From Dehalococcoidia bacterium (GTDB lineage Bacteria; Chloroflexota; Dehalococcoidia; UBA6926), in contig CBDEUZ010000007.1 of NCBI GenBank assembly GCA_965243495.1, positions 295,743-359,742 on the forward strand: 64,000 nt of DNA, read 5' to 3'. The stretch's first letter is position 1, and every line of letters starts with the position of its first letter. Positions 13,929 through 61,562 of the stretch are shown here, piece after piece. The notes beneath the pieces are model-generated. The model worked only from the letters and a program-made list of their open reading frames with translations. It did not search any database and had not been told where the DNA came from. Position numbers and translations under genes: made by a program.

Positions 13929-14018
<90 letters not shown>

Positions 14019-14028
14019 TCCTAAAGAC

Positions 14029-14120
14029 GGAGAGGTGCTGGAGTGGCCGAACAGGCACGCCTGGAAAGCGTGTAGGGTCTTACCGGGCCCTCGCGGGTTC
14101 GAATCCCGCTCTCTCCGCCA
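14029..14120 (+). tRNA. tRNA-Ser (anticodon GGA)
   Basis: 92-nt class II tRNA. Anticodon loop CUGGAAA, long variable arm, T-loop GGTTCGAAT, encoded CCA. Confidence 0.9.
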
Positions 14121-26369: not shown

Positions 26370-27854
26370 CTACTCGTCCTCGTTATCTGTATCCTCGTCG
26401 GCGTCCGTTTCCGTCTCAGTCTCGACGGCGTCCTCAGATCCGTCGCGCTCTCCTCGCGCGATCTCTACCAGCATATCCATTGTCTTACGCGCGACAATCC
26501 TACGCTGCACGCTCTCGCGCGCCGCCTCGCTCTCAAATACCTGCCGCGCTTGCTCCTGTGTCGCCTCATCCTGTTGCGCGCCGACGACTTCAGCAATGTC
26601 CCCGTTGATTTCCTCGTCTGACGCCTCAATGCCTTTCGACTCAGCTAGGTTCGTTATCAACAGTCCACGCAGAATGCGCTGTTCTGCCTGCGGGCGAACT
26701 GAGTCGCGCAGCTGCTCAACGTCCTGGCCCGTCGTCTGCATGTAGGCAGTGAGCGACATTCCCATACCCCGCATCTGCTGATCCTGATCCTGCAGAATGC
26801 GGTCAATCTCCAGATCGACGACGATAGGCGGATACGTCACAGTGGCCGCCTCGGCGAACTTGTCAAGGATATTCTCCTCGTACTCCGCGCGAGCCTGCGC
26901 TTCCGTCCGTTCCGTCAGATCAGACCGGATCCGATCCCGTAAGGCCTCCACCGTCTCGAACTCATCGTCACCGAAACCCTCGACGCCTTGCGCCCATTCA
27001 TCATCGAGTTCCGGCAGATTCTGCTCCTTGACCTCGCGTACTGTCACCGTGAAATGCGCGTCCTTGCCGTTCAGATTGCGAACTGTGAAATCGTCCGGCA
27101 CGGAGATCGTGAATTCCTTGGTCTCCTCCGCGCTCATACCGACAAGTTCTTCGGGCACCCCGGGTGCGGGATAAGTCACGCCCTCTTGCACCATGTAGCT
27201 GATGCCTGTCTCCTCCACGAATACGCGTCGGCCCGGTACCTCCGGCTCACTCTCAGAGTCAGCACTGTCGTCAGATTCAGACTCGGACTCCGCATCAGCA
27301 TCGTCGTCGTCAGTTTCCGCCGCGTCCTCCGGATCCTCGTCCACATATCCGTGCATGTCGACGGTCAGCAGATCACCGAGTTGGACATCCCGCTCCACCG
27401 GTTCCCACGGAGAGCCCTGACGACGCAGGTTAGTCAGCACGTCCTCAATCTGCTCGTCCGTGACCTCCGGCTCCTCCCAGTCGACGCGAAGAGACTCATA
27501 ATCCCCAAGCTCAACCTCCGGGCGCAGCGAGATTGTTGCCCGAAACCTAACGGGATTAATAGATTCCACGTCTGTCACCTGCGGCGGCGCGATGGGCTCA
27601 AGCTCCTGCTTCTCCACCGCGTCTGCCACGGACCGCTCCAGCAATCCCTCCATATCATCTTGGAGCAGCGTTTCCGTCCCGATGTGGCGTTCCAAAATCG
27701 CGCGCGGCGTCTTGCCCTTCCGAAATCCCGGGATAACGTACCGTTGCACAAGCCGCCGGTACGCCCGCTGCTTGTGATCCTCAATCTCCGCCTCTTCCAA
27801 CTCAATAACCAGCCCAATCTGGCGGTCAGGCATATCTTCAGTCGTTATCTTCAC
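26370..27854 (-). CDS. tig: trigger factor, with acidic low-complexity insertions
   Basis: 494 aa. N-terminal ribosome-binding motif GFRKGKTP, in tig-clpP-clpX order. Carries an Asp/Glu/Ser-rich insertion and a C-terminal acidic tail. Confidence 0.9.
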   Translation of the reverse strand: MKITTEDMPDRQIGLVIELEEAEIEDHKQRAYRRLVQRYVIPGFRKGKTPRAILERHIGTETLLQDDMEGLLERSVADAVEKQELEPIAPPQVTDVESINPVRFRATISLRPEVELGDYESLRVDWEEPEVTDEQIEDVLTNLRRQGSPWEPVERDVQLGDLLTVDMHGYVDEDPEDAAETDDDDADAESESESDDSADSESEPEVPGRRVFVEETGISYMVQEGVTYPAPGVPEELVGMSAEETKEFTISVPDDFTVRNLNGKDAHFTVTVREVKEQNLPELDDEWAQGVEGFGDDEFETVEALRDRIRSDLTERTEAQARAEYEENILDKFAEAATVTYPPIVVDLEIDRILQDQDQQMRGMGMSLTAYMQTTGQDVEQLRDSVRPQAEQRILRGLLITNLAESKGIEASDEEINGDIAEVVGAQQDEATQEQARQVFESEAARESVQRRIVARKTMDMLVEIARGERDGSEDAVETETETDADEDTDNEDE

Positions 27855-29993: not shown

Positions 29994-31856
29994 CTAATTG
30001 GAGACGTCGGGCAGGTCATCGTAGTAGCGCGACGTGAAGAGCAGCCCGTCGTAGCGGATAGCCCAAACGTGAGCGTACAAAGTCTCCGAAGACCTGGTGT
30101 TGGGGAAGACGAAGTTGACCCAGATTCCCTCATCCGTGGCCGCCGCCATCTCTTCGCCGACGTTCCGAGCGGCGCCGGCGCCAACGGTCTTTAGGTCCGT
30201 GCCGATGAGGTGTGGTGAGAGTATGGCTACTCGCACGATGTCATCCTCATCAGCCATTGTCAGATTCCATTGGCCGTCAACACTGTCCGCAGTGTTGTAA
30301 TGAGCAATCGTAGCGTCCAGGCCGTTGGCCACGTAGTAGTCGATGGCACTCTGCACGTATGCCCTGGTCTCGGCCGCTGGGTCGTCAACACGGACGTAGT
30401 AGCCCGAAGCGAAGAGCAGCCCGTCGTGGCGCACTGCATACCCCACCTTCGGAACTTCCTTGAGCGTCACCGGATGAGGCCACAGGTACTCAACCCAGAC
30501 TCCTTCACCACCGTCCTCGGCCTTGGCCAATTCATTGCCCAATTCGTAGCCGTCTGAACCCACCACGTCCTTGATATCCGTGCCAATCAGCTCGGGGATC
30601 AGGGGGTGGACATGATAGACGTCGTTTTCGTCAGTGGCGAACAGGTACCATTCGCCTTCGAAGCTGGCAACACTGTTGTAGTAGTTGAGCATGGATTGCA
30701 GCCCGTCGCGCTCATAACGCGCTATCGCCTGCTCCACATAAGTCACCGTGTATTCCCTCGGATCGACACCCTGCCAGGCCGGAGTGCCGGACTCAACACC
30801 ACCGGTGTAGTAGCCGGAGGCGAAAATCAGCCCGTCATGGCGGACGGCCCACGTAACCTTTTGCTGTTCCTTGCGGGATGTGGGATGAGGCCACAGGTAT
30901 TCTACCCAGATGCCCTCCTCAGTGGCCTCGGCAATCTCGTTGCCCAGCTCCTGTCCGTCCGAGCCGACCACGTCCTTGATGTCCGTGCCGATCAGATGCG
31001 GGAAGATGGGATGGGCCAGGTAGTTGTCGTCCTCGCCGATGAGGAAAAGGTAGAACTGGCCGTTTAGGCTGTCCTGGTTGTTGTAGTAAGCGATAGTGGC
31101 GTCCAGGCCGTCCTCTTCATACTTGGCGATGGCCCTGTCAACGTACTCCTTGGTTGAGCTCGCCACGTCTTCCGTCAGGGCGGAGTGAGTGGCAGCGAAA
31201 AGCAGGCCGTTGTGAAGGACGGCATAGAGTCTCCGCGGTTCCACCAGCTTGGTGACCGGGTTGAGGCCTCGGGTCGTAATCCAGTAGCCATCTTCGGTGG
31301 CGACGGTTGTAAGCCACTGGAGTCCGGACAATGTCGAGCCGGGACCGACGAATTGGCCCTCCAGGGAGGGGAGAGCGCTGTACACCAGCACAACGTTTTC
31401 TTCGATGTCTATGATTGTTAGCGGCCGACCGTTTTCTATGCCGGCTTCAGATCGATATCGCATGAGGGTGGCCTCAAGGCCGTTCGCGTCGTAATAGTCC
31501 ACGGCGCTCTCCACGAAGGCAAGGGTGAGCGCATCGTCTTGACTGGCCTGCTCGGGCGTCGCCGGCTCGGGCGTCACAACCGCCACGCGATCCGGCGCCC
31601 GTGTCGCAGTGGGTTCGGGCGCTTCGGTGGCGGCGGGTTCGGGCATAGAGGTTGCAGTTGGCGGAGGCTCCGCGGCCACGGTGGGCGGGGGAACATTGGT
31701 CGCGGGGGGCACAGGGGCGACGGTGGGGTCATCCTCGCCGCAGGCAACGGCAAAAATAGCGAGAGAAGCCACAACCAGAAGCAGGAACAAGACGGTTGGG
31801 ATTCGCTTGGCCAGCAAGCTGGCGGGGTTCGACTTGCTCTCTTGCTCGGTTCTCAT
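29994..31856 (-). CDS. lipoprotein with four tandem sCache_2-like (single Cache) extracytoplasmic sensor domains, no output domain
   Basis: 620 aa. Signal peptide plus a Cys lipobox (IFAVAC), a Pro/Thr/Ala-rich linker, then four ~115-aa repeats. Each repeat carries Y..AI..Y...G......YY.......G.WYLF...D.....HP..P.LIGTD.KD..GSDG.ELG.........G.WVEY.WP.P.......KV.YA...DGL.FASGYY, matching the Cache fold signature. Confidence 0.6.
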   Translation of the reverse strand: MRTEQESKSNPASLLAKRIPTVLFLLLVVASLAIFAVACGEDDPTVAPVPPATNVPPPTVAAEPPPTATSMPEPAATEAPEPTATRAPDRVAVVTPEPATPEQASQDDALTLAFVESAVDYYDANGLEATLMRYRSEAGIENGRPLTIIDIEENVVLVYSALPSLEGQFVGPGSTLSGLQWLTTVATEDGYWITTRGLNPVTKLVEPRRLYAVLHNGLLFAATHSALTEDVASSTKEYVDRAIAKYEEDGLDATIAYYNNQDSLNGQFYLFLIGEDDNYLAHPIFPHLIGTDIKDVVGSDGQELGNEIAEATEEGIWVEYLWPHPTSRKEQQKVTWAVRHDGLIFASGYYTGGVESGTPAWQGVDPREYTVTYVEQAIARYERDGLQSMLNYYNSVASFEGEWYLFATDENDVYHVHPLIPELIGTDIKDVVGSDGYELGNELAKAEDGGEGVWVEYLWPHPVTLKEVPKVGYAVRHDGLLFASGYYVRVDDPAAETRAYVQSAIDYYVANGLDATIAHYNTADSVDGQWNLTMADEDDIVRVAILSPHLIGTDLKTVGAGAARNVGEEMAAATDEGIWVNFVFPNTRSSETLYAHVWAIRYDGLLFTSRYYDDLPDVSN

Positions 31857-31926
31857 TAAATGTGTACCTCTTCCTTAATATGTTCCCTATATCCATAGTA
31901 TCATTCAGATACTGAGAATAGGCTGA

Positions 31927-33657
31927 ATGAGTCAAATCCGCTACGAACCCGAAGAAGACTGCCCGCCGTTAACAGCGGTAACCGCAGCCTTACAGATACT
32001 CATCCCCAACACCATCAGCCTCGTTCTGCTGACGGCACTGGTGGTGCGTGCAGCTGGCGAATCCGATGCCTACCTCTCTTGGGTCACCTTTACCGCCCTT
32101 GTCGTCACCGGCGCCGGCATGATCCTGCAGACGCTGCGGTTGCGTCATCTGGGCGCTGGCCGACTTTTTGTCGCAAACTTCAATGTGCCCTTCCTGGCCG
32201 TGTGCGCTCTGGCGCTCTCCGTGGGCGGACCCGGATTGCTGGCCAGTCTGGTGGTGGCGTCAACCCTCATTCAGGCCGTCTTGACTTTTCGTCTCGCCTC
32301 TCTCCGCCTCATCTTCACACAGACAGTGAGCGGAATCGTCGTCATGCTGGTGGCGATATCGGCCATGCCATTCATCATCGGCAGAGTGGTCACACCACCG
32401 GAAGGCCAATCAACCCTGTTGTTCCTTGCGCCGGGCCTGGCCGCCCTGGCTGTCGGCGTCCTCATCGCCCTGCAAGACAGGCCCGTGTGGCGCATGTGGA
32501 TCCTCACAATCACCGTCGCCGTCGGAATGCTGGTCGCCGTGCCTCTGGGCTTCTATGACACGAACCCCATCGCCGAGGCCCCCTGGGTGAGCCTACCCGC
32601 CTACCCATGGCCTGCCCTGGATATCGCCTTCAACGCCGATTTCTGGACCCTCCTGCCGGTCTTCGTGCTCGTGAATCTCACCGGATTTATGAAGGTGGTG
32701 GGCGACCTGTCTGTCATCTATCGCGCCTCCTACCGCCGGCAATCCGCCGTGGACTTTCGCGCGGTTCAGGGAGGCCTGAATGTCTACGGCATCGGCACCT
32801 TTGTGTCCGGCCTCCTGGGGACCCTGCCTGTCGCCGCTCCATGGTCGTCCACTGCCGTGTATATCGGCTTCATCGGCGTTGCGGCCAGAAATGTTGGACT
32901 GTACCTGGGTGTGCTGACCATCATCGCCGCCTTCTTTTCCAAGTTCCTTGCCGTCATTGTCGCCATTCCCAGCCCCGTCGTCAGCGCGGTATACATCATC
33001 ATCTTTGCCATGCTCTTTGTGGAAGGGGCCAAAACCGTCTTCACCGGACAGATTGACCAGAAAAAGGCCGCCATCACTGGCGTCTCCATGGTGATGGGCT
33101 TGTCCGCGGTGGCATTGAGCCGCCTCTTCGAGGGCAACGTCGGCCATCTTGTTAGCAACCCTATTGTCGTCGGCGGCGCCGTCGCCATCGCCATGACACT
33201 GATCGCCCAGATGCCGCGTCTACGCGCCAGCACACTGCGGATCGACTTGTCTCCGGCCTCCCCGGCCGCTGTCGATGAATTCCTCGGCAGGTTCGCGGAC
33301 AAACAGTCGTGGACAGAGGAAGGGGCGAACCGGTTGCGTCTTGTCGGAGAAGAGGCCATCCTCAGCCTGCTCGAATCCGGCAAGGAAAGCGCCCTCCCAC
33401 AGAAGCGTTCGATGGTGGCCACAATCAGCCCCGACGGCGCTTCCGCCGAGCTTGAGATTATCGTCGCCTCTAACGACGCCATCCAGGGCAACATTGAGGA
33501 TCGCATGGCCTATCTCGGACAGGATCAGGCGCTGGAAGACGAGCAGGAACTTTCTGTCCGCATCCTGCGGCACTACGCCTCATCCGTGCAGCACCGCCAG
33601 TACTACGGCATCGACATCGTCAACTGCCGCGTCGCAGACACACCCCGTTCACCGTGA
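31927..33657 (+). CDS. multi-pass permease (NCS2/SulP-superfamily-like) with a ~150-aa C-terminal cytoplasmic domain
   Basis: 576 aa, >10 hydrophobic helices followed by a soluble C-terminal domain. Divergent from the tandem-Cache lipoprotein. Family assignment is tentative. Confidence 0.55.
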   Translation: MSQIRYEPEEDCPPLTAVTAALQILIPNTISLVLLTALVVRAAGESDAYLSWVTFTALVVTGAGMILQTLRLRHLGAGRLFVANFNVPFLAVCALALSVGGPGLLASLVVASTLIQAVLTFRLASLRLIFTQTVSGIVVMLVAISAMPFIIGRVVTPPEGQSTLLFLAPGLAALAVGVLIALQDRPVWRMWILTITVAVGMLVAVPLGFYDTNPIAEAPWVSLPAYPWPALDIAFNADFWTLLPVFVLVNLTGFMKVVGDLSVIYRASYRRQSAVDFRAVQGGLNVYGIGTFVSGLLGTLPVAAPWSSTAVYIGFIGVAARNVGLYLGVLTIIAAFFSKFLAVIVAIPSPVVSAVYIIIFAMLFVEGAKTVFTGQIDQKKAAITGVSMVMGLSAVALSRLFEGNVGHLVSNPIVVGGAVAIAMTLIAQMPRLRASTLRIDLSPASPAAVDEFLGRFADKQSWTEEGANRLRLVGEEAILSLLESGKESALPQKRSMVATISPDGASAELEIIVASNDAIQGNIEDRMAYLGQDQALEDEQELSVRILRHYASSVQHRQYYGIDIVNCRVADTPRSP

Positions 33658-33659
33658 GC

Positions 33660-34857
33660 CGCGCCAAAGCCGGACCGCGAACCGAGAGCCGTAACGCAGC
33701 TGCCCCGTTCGCCCTGAGCCTGTCGAAGGGGGCCCCCGAACGGGGACCTAGCCTCTCCGTCATTCCGAGCGTAGTCGAGGAATCTAAAGACTCATCTGGC
33801 AAACATGCTGGAACGCGGCTACCATACCCCTCCGCAACACTACCCGGATCGCGAACTTAAGCCGTAGAGCAGCTACCCCGTTCGCCCTGAGCCTGTCGAA
33901 GGGGGCTCCCGAACGGGGACCTGGCCCCTCCGTCATTCCCGCGAAAGCAGGAATCCGGAATCCCCTCTCACTCAGGGAGAGGGGTAGGGTGAGAGGGTTG
34001 TCATTCCGAGCGCAGCCGAGGAATCTAAAGACTCAACTCCGCCATCAAAGCTGGAACACGGCAAACTACCTCATTCGGTAATCGAACCCAGATCGCGAAC
34101 CGAGAGCCGTAACGCAGTTACCCCGTTCGCCCTGAGCCTGTCGAAGGGGGTTCCCGAACGGGGACCTAGCCTCTCCGTCATTCCGAGCGCAGCCGAGGAA
34201 TCTAAAGACTCATCTGGCAAACATGCTGGAACGCGGCTACCATACCTCTCCGCAACACTACCCGGAACGCGACCCGAGAACCGTAGCGCAGCTACCCCGT
34301 TCGCCCTGAGCCTGTCGAAGGGGGTTCCCGAACGGGAACCTGGCCCCTCCGTCATTCCCGCGAAAGCGGGAATCCAGTGCGGCGCACAGCGCCGCCCCCC
34401 ACGCCATATTGTCATTCCCAGCGCAGCCGAGGAATCTAAAAACTCATCTGCCAAACATGCTGGAACGCGGCGGACAAACGACACAGACCAACCAACCCCG
34501 ACCGCGAACTTAAGCCGTAGCGCAGCTACCCCGTTCGCCCTGAGCCTGTCGAAGGGGGCCCCCGAACGGGGTGCTAGCCCCTCGTCATTCCCGCGAAAGC
34601 GGGAATCCAGTGCGGCGCACCGCGCCGCCTCCCACCCCAGAATGTCATTCCGAGCGCCTATACTGTCATTCCCAGCACAGCCGAGGAATCTAAAAGCTCA
34701 ATCCGCCGCCAAACCCGGAACGCGGCGGACAAACGACACAGACCAACCAACCCCGACCGCGAACTTAAGCCGTAACGCAGTTACCCCCAAAACCCTAACA
34801 GGGCGGCCCCCTAAAGAAGCCGCCCCGCTTTTCAGAGCGTGATCGCGAACTTTAAAA
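33660..34857. repeat. 1.2-kb array of five composite palindromic repeat units
   Basis: Five tandem units each start with the hairpin module ccccgttcgccctgagcctgtcgaaggggNNcccgaacgggg. Its ends ccccgttcg/cgaacgggg are reverse complements. Units continue with gtcattcccgcgaaagcgggaatcc and/or gtcattccgagcgcagccgaggaatctaaag, with ccctctc...gagaggg and ggaacgcgg...cgcgaac segments. The same modules occur singly at ~15 other intergenic sites in the window. Confidence 0.85.
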
Positions 34858-35961
34858 TCAATCCTCGATGTAGCTCTCCAGACGCTCGCGATTCCGCTGC
34901 AGCCGCAGGTTCTTCATCGCGCCAGCCTGAATCTGCCGCACACGCTCCCGCGTCAGGCTCAGCATGTCGCCGATCTCACGCAGCGTGTACTCCTTGCCGT
35001 CCATGATTCCAAACCGCAGCTCCAGCACCAGCCGTTCACGCGGTGACAGCGACGCCAGAACCGCCGCAATCCGCTCCCGCAGCATCGTCTGCGCCGCCAT
35101 GTCGATGGGCGATTCCGTCTCGTCCTGCGCGACAAAGTCCGCCAGCGTCGCCCCGTCCTCACCGATGGGCGCGTCGATGGACGCCGGTTGCTGCGCCAAG
35201 GAGATCAGTTGCTCCACCTTCTCCAGCGGAATCTCCGTCTCCGCCGCCAGTTCCTCCGGCGTCGCCTCGCGACCGAACTGTTGAAGCAGGCGATGCCGCG
35301 CGCGGTCCACCTTCGCGGACAGCTCGCCCACATGAACCGGCAGGCGGATGCTGCTCCCCTGCTCGGACACACCCCGGGCGATGGCCTGGCGAATCCACCA
35401 CGTCGCGTACGTCGAGAACCGGAACCCGCGTCGATGATCGAACCGGTCCACCGCCTTCAGCAGGCCGATGTTGCCTTCCTGGATCAGGTCGAAAAGGGAC
35501 AGCCCCCTGCCCTGATACCGCTTGGCGATGCTGACCACAAGACGAAGATTGGCTTCGGCCATGGACTTGCGGGCTTCCTCGCCCTTCTTGACCGTCTTCA
35601 GCAGTTCACGACGCTCGGAGGCGCTCATGCTGTCCGCGCCGGCAAGGCGCTTGGACGCGCGGCGTCCCTCATCCATGAGCATGCCGAGCTCCGTCTCCTG
35701 CTGCGGCGTCAGCAGCTTGCGTCGGCCGATGTCCTGCAGATAGCCGCGAAGCGGATCATTCAGGTTCTCCGCCGAGCCACTGTCGAACTCGCCGACCTCT
35801 GGCGCGTCCACGGAAGTGGTCGTCTCATCCTGCGCATCGTCGAGGTCGAGGACATCCACGGAGGTCTGATTCACCCCCATAGGGACATCTGTCGAACCCG
35901 GCGCGCGCCGGGCCTCGTCCTCCGCGATCACGGCTCTGGTCTCGTCCGCTATCGCCTTCAT
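34858..35961 (-). CDS. rpoD: RNA polymerase sigma factor RpoD (primary sigma-70)
   Basis: 367 aa, regions 2-4 (LRLVVSIAKRYQGRGLSLFDLIQEGNIGLLKAVDRFD ... TLREIGDMLSLTRERVRQI). Confidence 0.95.
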   Translation of the reverse strand: MKAIADETRAVIAEDEARRAPGSTDVPMGVNQTSVDVLDLDDAQDETTTSVDAPEVGEFDSGSAENLNDPLRGYLQDIGRRKLLTPQQETELGMLMDEGRRASKRLAGADSMSASERRELLKTVKKGEEARKSMAEANLRLVVSIAKRYQGRGLSLFDLIQEGNIGLLKAVDRFDHRRGFRFSTYATWWIRQAIARGVSEQGSSIRLPVHVGELSAKVDRARHRLLQQFGREATPEELAAETEIPLEKVEQLISLAQQPASIDAPIGEDGATLADFVAQDETESPIDMAAQTMLRERIAAVLASLSPRERLVLELRFGIMDGKEYTLREIGDMLSLTRERVRQIQAGAMKNLRLQRNRERLESYIED

Positions 35962-45934: not shown

Positions 45935-46010
45935 TGGAGCCCACAACCAGATTCGAACTGGTGACCTCGTTCTTACCAAGAACGTGCTCTACCTCCTGAG
46001 CTATGTGGGC
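45935..46010 (-). tRNA. tRNA-Thr (anticodon GGT)
   Basis: 76-nt cloverleaf on the minus strand. Acceptor GCCCACA/TGTGGGC, anticodon loop UUGGUAA, T-loop TTCGAAT, encoded CCA. Immediately upstream of tuf, as thrT-tufB in E. coli. Confidence 0.85.
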
Positions 46011-46083
46011 CTCTCTCTCCTTTCCTGTTTTTCTGCTTCTACTCCATGTATTGTCGTGTCTACGGGCGGCATACGCATGATGC

Positions 46084-46159
46084 TGGAGCCCGAGAGGGGA
46101 TTCGAACCCGCTAACCTGCCGATTACAAATCGGCTGCGCTACCCTTGCGCCACTCGGGC
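46084..46159 (-). tRNA. tRNA-Thr (anticodon TGT), T-stem with one mismatch
   Basis: 76 nt. Acceptor GCCCGAG/CTCGGGC, anticodon loop UUUGUAA, T-loop TTCGAAT, CCA. The T-stem GCGGG/CCCCT has a C-C mismatch, so the call is less certain. Confidence 0.55.
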
Positions 46160-61475: not shown

Positions 61476-61562
61476 GGCAGGATGGCGGAGTGGACAAACG
61501 CACCAGGCTGTAAACTTGGCGCCCTAAGGGCTACGGGGGTTCGAATCCCTCTCCTGCCACCA
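61476..61562 (+). tRNA. tRNA-Tyr (anticodon GTA)
   Basis: 87-nt class II tRNA. Acceptor GGCAGGA/TCCTGCC, anticodon loop CUGUAAA, long variable arm, T-loop GGTTCGAAT, encoded CCA. A TAGAAT -10-like hexamer lies 10 nt upstream. Confidence 0.9.

What the first reader, a model, noticed from the sequence alone, without database searches (positions are those of the whole stretch)
29994..33657. Stand-alone lipoprotein made of four tandem single-Cache (sCache_2-like) domains, divergent from a permease
Cache domains normally form the extracytoplasmic sensor of chemoreceptors or kinases. Here four consecutive copies, each with the ...G.WYLF..D...HP..P.LIGTD.KD..GSDG...G.WVEY.WP.P....KV.YA...DGL.FASGYY signature, are anchored only by a lipid-modified Cys and a Pro/Thr-rich stalk, with no transmitter. 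This suggests a high-avidity ligand-capturing protein, probably for small carboxylates as is typical of sCache_2. It may serve the divergently transcribed NCS2/SulP-like permease, which has its own C-terminal cytoplasmic domain, as a non-canonical binding-protein-dependent uptake system.
Basis: partly seen in the sequence, partly recalled or inferred. Interest (0 to 1): 0.65.

Follow-up and report, generated by a model that had tools for sequence, protein, structure and literature searches.

The report
Tethered Cache-domain array paired with permease
A membrane-tethered surface protein built from four sensor-type (Cache) domains, two with an intact carboxylic-acid pocket, is almost always encoded beside one unusual transporter in sponge-associated Chloroflexota, which suggests a so far undescribed way of coupling ligand capture or sensing to a carrier.

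Summary
ORF 29994-31856(-) encodes a 620-aa protein: signal peptide, lipobox Cys39, Pro/Thr-rich linker, then four tandem sCache_2-fold domains and no transmitter. ORF 31927-33657(+), transcribed divergently, encodes an NCS2-fold permease with an extra cytoplasmic domain.

The correction: only the two inner domains carry the signature. In 111 four-domain cassettes from 80 proteins, positions 2 and 3 keep the published carboxylate-binding residues (Tyr, His, Tyr, Lys, aromatic sandwich) essentially without exception. Positions 1 and 4 have lost them. Complete proteins always have 4, 8 or 12 domains.

The gene pair is conserved in 72 of 75 informative loci and in a lineage whose permease is only 54% identical, while other neighbours change. 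The permease has lost the nucleobase motif and has Lys where canonical carriers have Glu. Its C-terminal domain is a sequence orphan with a predicted SpoIIAB/RsbW-like fold, not STAS.

Best reading (about 0.45): a tethered capture antenna feeding a carboxylate carrier. Main rival (about 0.3): a ligand-sensing regulatory partner. No ligand, interaction or transport has been shown. I found no published precedent.

The parts
29994..31856 (-). Gene for the 620-aa tethered four-domain sCache_2 array (stop codon 29994-29996).
   Evidence: ORF. Pfam sCache_2 6e-21. More than 1000 homologues, all without a transmitter domain. AF2 model with pLDDT 83.4.
31740..31856 (-). Signal peptide with lipobox (residues 1-39, ...FAVAC, Cys39).
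   Evidence: Read directly from the sequence. A hydrophobic region followed by x-x-[AGS]-Cys is conserved in about 70 of 80 homologues, and the 57 mature proteins counted have no other Cys. The n-region has RR in 50 of 74 homologues and KR here.
31545..31739 (-). Pro/Thr/Ala/Glu-rich flexible linker (residues 40-104).
   Evidence: Sequence. In homologues the linker has a median length of 63 aa (range 26-172) and is 79% P/T/A/E.
31152..31544 (-). Cache domain R1 (residues 105-235). It has the Cache fold but a degenerate pocket (Leu, Ile, Tyr, Thr, Gly, Arg at the PscD ligand positions).
   Evidence: Orthologous repeats at cassette position 1 are only 54% identical between proteins.
30759..31151 (-). 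Cache domain R2 (residues 236-366). The pocket is intact: Tyr, Phe, His, Gly, Tyr, Trp, Lys.
   Evidence: Pfam stretch 264-338. The pocket residues are invariant in 111 of 111 cassettes, with one Lys-to-Met exception. Mean identity between proteins is 80%.
30357..30758 (-). Cache domain R3 (residues 367-500). The pocket is intact: Tyr404, Phe406, His417, Gly440, Tyr457, Trp459, Lys470.
   Evidence: Residue-by-residue alignment to PscD 5G4Y, 4K08 and 2QHK. Ligand residues from PMC5062169. Invariant in 111 of 111 cassettes. Mean identity between proteins is 83%.
29997..30356 (-). Cache domain R4 (residues 501-620). It has the Cache fold but a degenerate pocket (Asn, Thr, Ala, Phe, Phe, Ala).
   Evidence: Mean identity between proteins is 61%.
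31857..31926 (.). AT-rich 70-bp divergent intergenic region, presumed to hold the promoters of both genes.
   Evidence: Sequence. One sigma-70-like match on the + strand (TTAATA-18-TATCAT, 31875-31904), no better than the shuffled expectation. No Rfam element.
31927..33222 (+). Membrane domain of the permease (residues 1-432). It has the NCS2 / Xan_ur_permease fold with a re-tooled substrate site.
   Evidence: PF00860 at 110 bits across the full model. TIGR00801 is below its cut-off. The profile aligns to UapA 5I6C, SVCT1 and UraA. UapA Glu356 is Lys256 here, Asp360 is kept, and Q408-N409-N410-G411 is S-T-A-V. The AF2 model of this part failed, with pLDDT about 30.
33223..33657 (+). Cytoplasmic C-terminal domain of the permease (residues 433-576, plus stop codon). 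It is a sequence orphan with a predicted SpoIIAB/RsbW/UsfX-like fold.
   Evidence: pLDDT 60-80. Foldseek hits to 8IH8, 6M37, 8JZT, 1L0O and 1TID at E 5e-7 to 1e-5, TM 0.7-0.8. No Pfam match, no hhalign signal and no PDB profile hit. The domain is found in 380 clusters at 50% identity; the 9 long hits scanned with Pfam were all NCS2 permeases.

Best explanation
The two genes form a dedicated module for handling an organic anion at the cell surface.

The lipoprotein is exported and probably acylated on Cys39. It hangs from the cytoplasmic membrane on a flexible linker of about 65 residues. Its four-domain cassette presents two functional sCache_2 pockets (R2 and R3) between two structural, pocket-less Cache domains (R1 and R4).

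The pockets follow the short-chain carboxylic-acid rule: a Tyr/His/Tyr/Lys hydrogen-bond tetrad and a Phe/Trp sandwich. The back wall is opened (Gly where PscD has Phe and 4EXO has Ile). The ligand is therefore most likely a carboxylate of the pyruvate/acetate type carrying a bulkier substituent.

The partner is a 14-helix NCS2-fold secondary carrier. It has lost the nucleobase-recognition motif and carries an invariant Lys where canonical members have the substrate-binding Glu, which fits an anionic substrate.

The most likely mechanism is that the tethered array captures and retains the ligand next to the membrane and so raises its local concentration for the carrier. That makes it an SBP-like antenna for a secondary transporter. 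Capacity would be scaled by cassette duplication (4, 8 or 12 domains) or by extra array genes.

Shown here: the domain identities, pocket conservation, cassette grammar, gene linkage and altered carrier site. Inferred: lipidation, ligand class, physical interaction, direction of transport and the hand-over step.
For: - Linkage. The permease is adjacent in 72 of 79 loci, and in 72 of 75 where the upstream DNA is available. No other gene is conserved; the next real cluster is in 12 of 79. The pair also occurs with a permease 54% identical, in an operon-like order with a 150-bp gap.
- Pocket. Positions 2 and 3 keep all PscD/4EXO ligand residues in 111 of 111 cassettes. These domains are 80-83% identical between species, against 54-61% for positions 1 and 4. 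The ligand rule comes from PMC5062169 and PMC12415202.
- Carrier. TM8 Glu is replaced by Lys, invariant in the Cache-paired clade but variable (E/K/R/Q/D) in the wider family. The NAT motif is lost.
- Topology typical of solute-binding lipoproteins in bacteria without an outer membrane: lipobox plus a long P/T-rich tether.
- Scaling. There are 60 proteins with 4 domains, 16 with 8 and 7 with 12. Eight loci have two array genes per permease. This makes sense for capture capacity and less sense for a 1:1 regulatory subunit.
- No transmitter domain occurs in any of the 120 best homologues.
Against: - I found no precedent for a Cache domain acting as the binding protein of a transporter.
- Cache domains have no Venus-flytrap closure that a carrier could read.
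- NCS2 carriers work without binding proteins.
- More distant members of this same permease family, with the same C-domain, have no Cache neighbour. The carrier is therefore not intrinsically dependent on the array.
- No extra membrane subunit like DctQ or TctB is conserved.
- The divergent arrangement shows co-localisation, not co-transcription.
- The transmembrane model failed, so the substrate-site argument rests on a sequence alignment to UapA with E 8.5e-9 over residues 185-411 only.
- No ligand, binding or transport data exist.
Confidence: 0.45

Rival explanations
1. Split sensor or regulatory subunit. The Cache array is the ligand-sensing ectodomain whose missing transmitter is the neighbouring membrane protein. 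Ligand binding changes how the array contacts the permease. This either gates or tunes transport, as an alpha2delta-like auxiliary subunit would, or is relayed through the permease to its cytoplasmic SpoIIAB/RsbW-like domain, which then binds or releases a cytoplasmic partner such as a sigma factor or a STAS protein. The permease would then be a transceptor.
For: - Cache domains are overwhelmingly sensors (PMC5062169; PMC12415202).
- The permease C-domain is predicted to have the fold of partner-switching anti-sigma kinases and is very strongly conserved: E475, E476, N522, R545, L547 and H556 are invariant across members 27-54% identical.
- It seems to lack the N-box Asn and the glycine-rich ATP-lid boxes. 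This is read from a forced alignment only, but it would fit a binding module rather than a kinase.
- The eukaryotic alpha2delta subunit, a lipid-anchored multi-Cache ectoprotein without a transmitter that partners a channel and binds amino acids, was among the top structural matches (PMC9901441).
- The degenerate R1 and R4 are still conserved (54-61%) and could be docking surfaces.
Against: - The C-domain is present in family members that have no Cache partner. It is therefore a feature of the carrier family and not an adaptation to the array.
- No sigma factor, STAS protein or other signalling gene is conserved nearby. The sigma-70 gene at 34858-35961 is kept only in the 3 closest genomes.
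- The SpoIIAB likeness exists only at the level of a model with pLDDT 60-80. No sequence method supports it.
- Duplication of cassettes to 8 or 12 domains, and second array genes, are hard to fit with a stoichiometric regulatory subunit.
Confidence: 0.3
2. Co-regulated but physically independent functions. The array binds or retains a metabolite, or a surface or host-matrix component, on its own. It might act as an extracellular buffer or store, or as an adhesin toward sponge-derived acids. It is kept next to the permease only because both belong to the same regulon.
For: - The arrangement is mostly divergent, with intergenic spacing varying from 70 to about 550 bp, and a few loci are convergent or tandem.
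- Some homologues carry extra N-terminal modules (FN3-like, or a repetitive stalk) typical of surface proteins.
- The hosts are sponge-associated MAGs, at least for the SB06xx bins.
Against: - Linkage survives when every other neighbour has changed, and across 54% permease identity.
- The pocket is that of a small-molecule carboxylate binder and is invariant.
- The chemical match between an anion-type carrier site and a carboxylate pocket would be a coincidence.
Confidence: 0.15
3. The system is for nucleobases or related heterocycles (urate, xanthine, orotate) rather than simple carboxylates. This would keep the ancestral NCS2 specificity, with the Cache pocket adapted to a planar acidic ring.
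For: - The carrier belongs to the NCS2 fold.
- Cache domains that bind purines exist, for example McpH with uric acid (8BMV), listed.
- An aromatic sandwich with an enlarged back wall (Gly) could hold a planar ring.
Against: - The residues that recognise nucleobases in UapA and UraA (TM8 Glu, TM10 Gln/Glu-Asn) are all replaced.
- The Cache pocket matches the short-chain carboxylate rule residue for residue.
- The known purine sensors are dCache_1, not sCache_2.
Confidence: 0.1

Closest known systems
sCache_2 sensor domains of chemoreceptors (PscD-SD 5G4Y/5G4Z, Adeh_3718 4K08, V. parahaemolyticus 4EXO/2QHK, McpP)
   Same: Same Pfam family and same fold. R2 and R3 have the same ligand-contact residues: the Tyr/His/Tyr/Lys tetrad, and the Phe/Trp sandwich exactly as in the pyruvate-binding 4EXO.
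   Different: Those domains are single. They sit between two transmembrane helices and drive a cytoplasmic transmitter as dimers. Here four domains are strung in one exported, lipid-tethered chain with no transmitter, two of them have lost the pocket, and the back-wall residue is Gly.
MctS/MctR-MctP and similar systems, in which an sCache_2 sensor kinase controls a monocarboxylate permease
   Same: An sCache_2 carboxylate pocket is functionally tied to a secondary carrier for the same class of compound. NCBIfam's best hit for R3 is the MctS model (E 2.7e-9, far below the equivalog cut-off).
   Different: In MctS the link is transcriptional, through a histidine kinase and a response regulator. 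Here there is no kinase, and the link is gene adjacency with a different carrier family (NCS2 fold rather than SSS). What MctS does is stated from the family name and my own knowledge, and was not tested here.
Binding-protein-dependent secondary transporters (TRAP DctPQM, TTT TctABC)
   Same: An extracytoplasmic high-affinity binder for organic acids is encoded next to a secondary carrier. In bacteria without an outer membrane the binder is a tethered lipoprotein.
   Different: TRAP and TTT binders are Venus-flytrap proteins (DctP, TctC or TAXI families) and need an extra small membrane subunit. Here the binder has the Cache fold, no extra subunit is conserved, and the carrier family also exists without it.
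alpha2delta auxiliary subunit of voltage-gated calcium channels
   Same: A lipid-anchored extracellular protein with four Cache modules and no transmitter. It partners a membrane transport protein and binds a small carboxylate-bearing ligand (amino acids, gabapentinoids) in only some of its Cache modules. It was among the top multi-domain structural matches (PMC9901441).
   Different: alpha2delta has two dCache_1 domains plus a VWA domain, is eukaryotic, and regulates trafficking and gating of a channel. There is no VWA domain here and the domains are sCache_2. This is an analogy only, not homology of the architecture.
NCS2/NAT nucleobase-ascorbate transporters (UapA 5I6C, UraA 3QE7, SVCT1 7YTW)
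   Same: The Pfam PF00860 match runs across the whole model, with about 14 predicted helices. The profile aligns to UapA, SVCT1 and UraA over the TM5-TM12 region, and Asp260 corresponds to UapA Asp360.
   Different: The NAT signature motif is absent, the TM8 Glu is Lys, the score is far below the TIGR00801 cut-off, and there is an extra 145-aa cytoplasmic domain.
SpoIIAB / RsbW / UsfX anti-sigma factor kinases (GHKL fold)
   Same: The predicted fold of the permease C-domain matches at TM 0.7-0.8 with probability 1.0.
   Different: No detectable sequence similarity. The ATP-binding boxes are not recognisable. The domain is fused to a carrier, and no sigma factor or STAS partner is linked.

Membership tests
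sCache_2 (Pfam PF17200) | Profile score above the Pfam gathering threshold. | tested here: met
   75.4 bits against a cut-off of 25, with two stretches (R2, R3) passing. In the 8-repeat relative, 4 stretches pass.
sCache_2 (Pfam PF17200) | Single-module Cache fold: N-terminal helices followed by a PAS-like five-stranded sheet. | tested here: met
   All four repeats show helix-helix-strand-strand-helix-strand-strand-strand in the AF2 model. They superpose on 4EXO, 2QHK, 4K08, 5G4Y and 3UB6-9 at TM 0.58-0.71.
sCache_2 short-chain carboxylate binders | Ligand residues equivalent to PscD Tyr90, His103, Tyr143 and Lys156, plus the aromatic sandwich 92/145. | tested here: met
   Met in R2 and R3 (Y, H, Y, K, F/W), and invariant in 111 of 111 cassettes. 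Not met in R1 and R4. PscD Phe126 is Gly here.
Cache-type transmembrane receptors (MCP, HK, DGC) | The sensor domain is flanked by transmembrane helices and joined to a cytoplasmic transmitter domain. | tested here: not met
   No HAMP, MCPsignal, HisKA, HATPase or GGDEF domain in the window protein or in the 120 best homologues. The protein ends with R4.
Bacterial lipoproteins (signal peptidase II substrates) | An n-region and h-region followed by a lipobox ending in an invariant Cys. | tested here: met
   ...LAIFAVAC39 in the window protein. About 70 of 80 homologues have x-x-[AGS]-C after a hydrophobic stretch, and the 57 mature proteins counted have no other Cys. This was a pattern search only; no dedicated predictor was available.
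Bacterial lipoproteins (signal peptidase II substrates) | Actual diacylglyceryl modification and cleavage. | not testable with these tools
   Needs biochemistry. The presence of lgt and lspA in the genome was not examined.
NCS2/NAT transporters | Pfam PF00860 match across the whole domain. | tested here: met
   110.2 bits against a cut-off of 27, residues 17-397 on model positions 3-386 of 389.
NCS2/NAT transporters | NCBIfam TIGR00801 (ncs2 superfamily) trusted cut-off. | tested here: not met
   108.1 bits against a cut-off of 291.8. The pbuX model scores 115 against 414.
NCS2/NAT transporters | NAT signature motif in TM10, [Q/E/P]-N-x-G-x-x-x-x-T-[R/K/G] (motif quoted from my own knowledge), and the substrate-binding Glu in TM8 (UapA Glu356). 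| tested here: not met
   Aligned to UapA, Q408-N409-N410-G411...T416-R417 reads S-T-A-V...T-G (A-T-V-V in the family consensus), and Glu356 is Lys256. Asp360 is kept as Asp260.
SulP/SLC26 transporters with a STAS domain | Sulfate_transp membrane domain and a C-terminal STAS domain. | tested here: not met
   No PF00916 or STAS hit at E up to 1. The best fold matches of the C-domain are the SpoIIAB/RsbW/UsfX kinase chains rather than their STAS-type antagonist partners in the same complexes.
SpoIIAB/RsbW-type anti-sigma factor kinases (HATPase_c_2) | GHKL/Bergerat fold. | tested here: inconclusive
SpoIIAB/RsbW-type anti-sigma factor kinases (HATPase_c_2) | Sequence-profile membership and the ATP-binding N, G1 and G2 boxes. 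| tested here: not met
   No Pfam hit at E up to 10. hhalign probability is at most 0.2% with a 110-sequence profile. No PDB hit by profile. In the forced alignment the N-box Asn falls on Leu/Ser and no Gly-rich lid is seen.
TRAP / TTT binding-protein-dependent secondary transporters | A Venus-flytrap binding protein (DctP, TAXI or TctC families) plus a small accessory membrane subunit. | tested here: not met
   The binder has the Cache fold. No third conserved gene exists in 79 loci.
TRAP / TTT binding-protein-dependent secondary transporters | Transport depends on the binding protein. | not testable with these tools
   Needs uptake assays with and without the lipoprotein. Genomic hint against strict dependence: distant family members lack a Cache neighbour.
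alpha2delta-type auxiliary subunits | A VWA domain with a MIDAS site plus two dCache_1 domains. | tested here: not met
   No VWA hit. The domains are sCache_2, and dCache_1 scores only 13 bits against a cut-off of 45. The resemblance is architectural only.

The most novel reading that the evidence does not exclude
This is the first member of a third kind of binding-protein-assisted secondary transporter. The extracytoplasmic binder is not a Venus-flytrap protein but a modular array of Cache sensor domains. The unit is a fixed four-domain cassette with two binding and two scaffolding domains, multiplied to 8 or 12. It docks on, or feeds, an NCS2-fold anion carrier whose own cytoplasmic SpoIIAB-like domain reports or regulates transport. 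That would show a classic sensor fold recruited for nutrient capture, a bacterial counterpart of the alpha2delta-channel partnership.
Probability: 0.3. Interest if true: 0.8.

Novelty: new variant of a known kind. Interest (0 to 1): 0.62.

Why it matters
Cache domains are the largest family of extracellular sensor modules in prokaryotes, and they are understood almost entirely as the input of a receptor that carries its own transmitter. Here a large family breaks that rule in a regular way. It has more than 1000 sequences in public data, all annotated as hypothetical or 'cache domain-containing'. Its members have no transmitter, a strict four-domain cassette with two live and two dead pockets, and a dedicated partner carrier.

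- If the array feeds the carrier, this would be a new solution to high-affinity uptake in bacteria without a periplasm. It would add a third class beside TRAP and TTT systems.
- If the array regulates the carrier, it would be a bacterial analogue of the alpha2delta-channel pair, and a new route from an extracellular ligand to a cytoplasmic partner-switching-like domain.

Either way the work defines two uncharacterised families: the array, and an NCS2 subfamily with an orphan C-terminal domain. It gives a concrete, testable ligand prediction (a pyruvate/acetate-type carboxylate with a larger substituent). It also points to a metabolite that seems to matter to abundant sponge-associated Chloroflexota.

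Tried and rejected
- A dCache reading. Pfam also reports dCache_2 (70 bits), but only over its membrane-proximal part and overlapping the sCache_2 hits. Every repeat has its own pair of N-terminal helices in the model. Rejected in favour of four separate sCache_2 modules.
- A SulP/STAS reading of the permease. No such Pfam hits, and the C-domain matches the kinase chains of the anti-sigma complexes rather than the STAS chains. Rejected.
- Sequence-level homology of the C-domain to SpoIIAB or RsbW.
- A third conserved gene, such as a regulator, sigma factor, STAS protein or small membrane subunit. All-against-all clustering of ORFs from 79 loci gave only the two genes plus shadow ORFs caused by high GC.
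- A riboswitch or other known RNA near the pair. None; Rfam found only tRNAs elsewhere in the window.
- Promoter and terminator scans were no better than shuffled sequence.
- The structure model of the permease membrane domain failed (pLDDT about 30) because the alignment was shallow. It was not used for any claim about the membrane part.
- Literature searches for stand-alone Cache lipoproteins with transporters, for Cache in Chloroflexota or SAR202, and for NCS2 carriers with anti-sigma-like domains found no precedent in the held library. This is absence of evidence within that library only.
- Other copies in the window: none.

Full report
**What is there**

The finding's coordinates match two divergent ORFs exactly. 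ORF 29994..31856 on the minus strand is 620 aa. ORF 31927..33657 on the plus strand is 576 aa. A 70-bp AT-rich spacer separates them in a genome of about 60% G+C.

The 620-aa protein starts with a basic n-region, a 20-residue hydrophobic stretch and the box FAVAC (Cys39). A 65-residue Pro/Thr/Ala/Glu-rich segment follows. The rest consists of four tandem repeats of about 125 residues: R1 105-235, R2 236-366, R3 367-500 and R4 501-620. They match each other with BLASTP E-values from 3e-12 to 4e-53, and R2 and R3 are 60% identical. This is far beyond chance.

**The repeats are Cache domains**

- Pfam gives sCache_2 at 75.4 bits against a cut-off of 25.
- The only PDB sequence matches are sCache_2 sensor domains of chemoreceptors: PscD 5G4Y, Adeh_3718 4K08, the Vibrio 2QHK/4EXO domain and TlpB.
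- An AlphaFold2 model of residues 105-620 has mean pLDDT 83.4 and pTM 0.61. It gives each repeat two N-terminal helices and a five-stranded PAS-like sheet.
- Foldseek superposes single repeats on those same structures at TM 0.58-0.71 and rmsd 2.6-3.8 A.

No transmitter domain is present in this protein or in the 120 best homologues.

**Correction to the observation: only two of the four domains are binding domains**

The PscD structure paper names the ligand contacts (PMC5062169). Tyr90, His103, Tyr143 and Lys156 hold the carboxylate. Trp92 and Trp145 sandwich it. Phe126 closes the back of the pocket. A later screen of sCache_2 domains confirms this rule. It also shows that His at the 103 position goes with pyruvate-type ligands and Leu with L-lactate (PMC12415202).

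I cut 444 repeats out of 80 complete family proteins, aligned them to one repeat profile and read these columns by position in the cassette:

| PscD residue | Position 1 (commonest) | Position 2 | Position 3 | Position 4 (commonest) |
|---|---|---|---|---|
| Tyr90 | Thr (31 of 111) | Tyr | Tyr | Asn (34 of 111) |
| Trp92 | Ile (51) | Phe | Phe | Thr (88) |
| His103 | Tyr (61) | His | His | Ala (84) |
| Phe126 | Gly (29) | Gly | Gly | Gly (109) |
| Tyr143 | Thr (37) | Tyr | Tyr | Phe or Tyr (36 each) |
| Trp145 | Gly (93) | Trp | Trp | Phe (85) |
| Lys156 | Arg (83) | Lys | Lys | Ala (81) |

Positions 2 and 3 show these residues in 111 of 111 cassettes, with a single Lys-to-Met exception. Positions 1 and 4 are variable and non-canonical.

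The inner domains are also much more conserved overall. Mean identity between proteins is 80% and 83% for positions 2 and 3, against 54% and 61% for positions 1 and 4. Pfam itself sees only the inner domains: 2 stretches here and 4 in an 8-repeat relative.

The pocket is thus that of a short-chain carboxylate binder of the His (pyruvate/acetate) type, with the same Phe/Trp sandwich as the pyruvate-binding 4EXO. The back wall is Gly where PscD has Phe and 4EXO has Ile. I infer a carboxylate ligand with a larger substituent. This is inference, not a result.

**A fixed four-domain cassette**

Every complete family protein in the 79 fetched loci has 4, 8 or 12 repeats (60, 16 and 7 proteins). All other counts belong to genes cut by a contig end or split by a frameshift. 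The grammar degenerate-binding-binding-degenerate is repeated in each cassette, including in the most distant paired relative. The unit of evolution is therefore the tetrad and not the single domain. Why this is so remains unexplained. I could not inspect the model's inter-domain geometry.

**Export and tethering**

About 70 of 80 homologues have a hydrophobic stretch followed by x-x-[Ala/Gly/Ser]-Cys and then a P/T/A/E-rich linker (median 63 residues, range 26-172). The 57 mature proteins counted contain no other cysteine. This is the layout of solute-binding lipoproteins in bacteria without an outer membrane. Lipidation itself is not shown. The n-region carries Arg-Arg in 50 of 74 homologues and Lys-Arg in this window, so Tat-type export is possible.

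**The gene pair is conserved**

A scan of one genome per species returned 79 loci, all from Dehalococcoidia or other Chloroflexota MAGs. Bins of the SB06xx series are listed among sponge-associated genomes in PMC7883664.

- tblastn with the window's neighbours found the permease in 72 of 79 loci. AspRS appeared as a true orthologue in 3 (plus two weak paralogous matches), trigger factor in 3 and the sigma-70 gene in 3.
- Four of the seven misses are contigs that end at the Cache gene. The real exceptions are L012, L047 and L053.
- The usual arrangement is divergent. One locus has the pair co-directional and four have them convergent.
- Clustering all ORFs of the loci found no third conserved gene.
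- A permease only 54% identical to the window's (P0244) lies 150 bp downstream of, and on the same strand as, a 1177-aa protein with eight sCache_2 repeats and the same grammar.

The second refutation test, that the pair is not conserved, therefore also fails to refute.

**The permease**

It matches Pfam Xan_ur_permease over the whole model (110 bits) but is far below the NCBIfam NCS2 cut-offs. A family profile aligns to UapA (E 8.5e-9), SVCT1 and UraA. In that alignment:

- UapA Glu356 in TM8 corresponds to Lys256.
- Asp360 is kept as Asp260.
- The TM10 motif Gln408-Asn409-Asn410-Gly411 reads Ser-Thr-Ala-Val (Ala-Thr-Val-Val in the family consensus).

Lys256 is invariant in the Cache-paired clade. 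In the wider family the same column is Glu, Lys, Arg, Gln, Asp or Asn. A cationic residue in place of the substrate-binding Glu fits an anionic substrate and agrees with the carboxylate pocket of the array. This rests on a sequence alignment only, because the AlphaFold model of the membrane part failed with pLDDT about 30.

**The C-terminal domain**

Residues 433-576 were modelled at pLDDT 60-80 with the order strand-helix-helix-strand-strand...helix-strand-strand. Foldseek matches this to the anti-sigma factor kinases UsfX 8IH8, RsbW 6M37 and SpoIIAB 1L0O/1TID at E 5e-7 to 1e-5 and TM 0.7-0.8.

No sequence method supports the relationship. Pfam finds nothing at E up to 10. hhalign gives nothing with 73-sequence or 110-sequence profiles. 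A profile search of all PDB chains gives only noise. I therefore describe it as a sequence orphan with a predicted SpoIIAB-like fold. It is not STAS.

A search of 1.84 billion cluster representatives found 380 clusters with this domain. Long hits carry it at their C-terminal end, and the 9 long hits scanned with Pfam were all NCS2 permeases; one further 397-aa hit had no Pfam match. Five divergent members (33-39% identical overall) sit in unrelated neighbourhoods. Four were scanned in six frames with the repeat profile and showed no Cache repeat. The fifth had no Cache family among its called genes. The carrier with its C-domain is therefore an older, self-standing family, and the Cache array is an addition in one clade.

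**Mechanism**

Shown:
- Two intact carboxylate-type pockets per cassette under very strong constraint.
- A surface-tethered topology.
- Specific, long-lived linkage to one carrier whose substrate site has turned cationic.
- Scaling of the array by whole cassettes (4, 8 or 12 domains) and, in eight loci, by a second array gene.

From this I favour a capture-and-retention antenna that raises the local concentration of a carboxylate for the carrier, with confidence about 0.45. The scaling argues for capacity rather than for a stoichiometric subunit.

Against this reading:
- No Cache protein is known to serve a transporter.
- Cache domains lack the closure that carriers read in classical binding proteins.
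- The carrier family can live without the array.

The main rival (about 0.3) is that the array is a ligand-sensing partner that gates the carrier or signals through its SpoIIAB-like domain. The eukaryotic alpha2delta subunit is a striking analogue and appeared among the structural matches. It is lipid-anchored, has four Cache modules and no transmitter, is bound to a channel, and binds ligand in only some of its modules. Against the rival, the C-domain is not specific to the Cache-paired clade and no sigma factor or STAS gene is linked.

Two further readings are less likely. Co-regulated but independent functions get about 0.15. A nucleobase-type substrate gets about 0.1 and overlaps with the readings above, because it concerns the substrate rather than the mechanism.

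**Comparison with known systems and novelty**

- The domains are members of sCache_2.
- The protein is not a member of any receptor class, because it has no transmitter.
- The carrier has the NCS2 fold but fails that family's signature tests.
- The system is not TRAP or TTT: the binder has the wrong fold and there is no accessory subunit.
- It is not alpha2delta: there is no VWA domain and no dCache_1.

Searches of the held literature found no description of such arrays, of their pairing with a carrier, or of NCS2 carriers with this C-domain. Database names are only 'hypothetical protein' or 'cache domain-containing protein'.

I rate it a new variant of a known kind. If the capture role is proven, it would deserve to be called a new class of binding-protein-assisted secondary transport.

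**Limits**

Everything functional is inferred from sequence, models and gene order. Lipidation, ligand, complex formation and transport are untested. The C-domain fold rests on one moderately confident model and one search method. The sponge habitat is documented only for part of the loci.

Noticed in passing
window 33660-34800: The 1.2 kb between the permease stop and the sigma-70 gene is a mosaic of interspersed direct repeats: five copies of a 95-nt unit, five of a 61-nt unit, and a 188-nt pair at 94% identity. ORF 34071..34484(-) looks like a shadow of these repeats. It may be a MITE/REP-like element family.
   Followed up: partly
window 26370-27854 (-): The trigger factor homologue carries an unusual Asp/Glu/Ser-rich insertion (about residues 165-205) and an acidic C-terminal tail.
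   Followed up: no
window 31740-31856 (-) and loci L001-L079: The signal-peptide n-region has a twin arginine in 50 of 74 homologues and Lys-Arg in the window protein. Tat-dependent export of a folded Cache array is possible.
   Followed up: partly
L015, L029, L068, L071 (N-terminal region upstream of the first repeat); L060, L066: Some family members have an extra FN3-like module, or a long repetitive 'VVETVVVEKERVVEGPT' stalk, in place of or in addition to the P/T-rich linker.
   Followed up: no
L080-L083, 4125-5714 (+): A distant member of the permease family (P0298) has no Cache neighbour, but a 529-aa VWA-domain protein lies 286 bp upstream on the same strand. This is curious because alpha2delta combines VWA and Cache domains. 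Only one lineage was seen.
   Followed up: partly
L007, L012, L014, L015, L017, L029, L031, L047: Eight loci carry two Cache-array genes, often of different length (for example 617 and 1700 aa in L007). Six of them (all but L012 and L047) have a single permease in the fetched stretch. L067 and L076 are single genes split by frameshifts.
   Followed up: partly
L088 1311-2918 and 9626-15735: In the distant paired locus the module sits among acyl-CoA carboxylase subunits, an aminotransferase, and HutI-like and amidohydrolase genes. These are not conserved elsewhere, so they give no firm metabolic hint.
   Followed up: no
window 13929-14117 (+) and 45938-46159 (-), 61476-61559 (+): There are five tRNA genes, four of them in two adjacent pairs. 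These are the only Rfam matches in the window.
   Followed up: no
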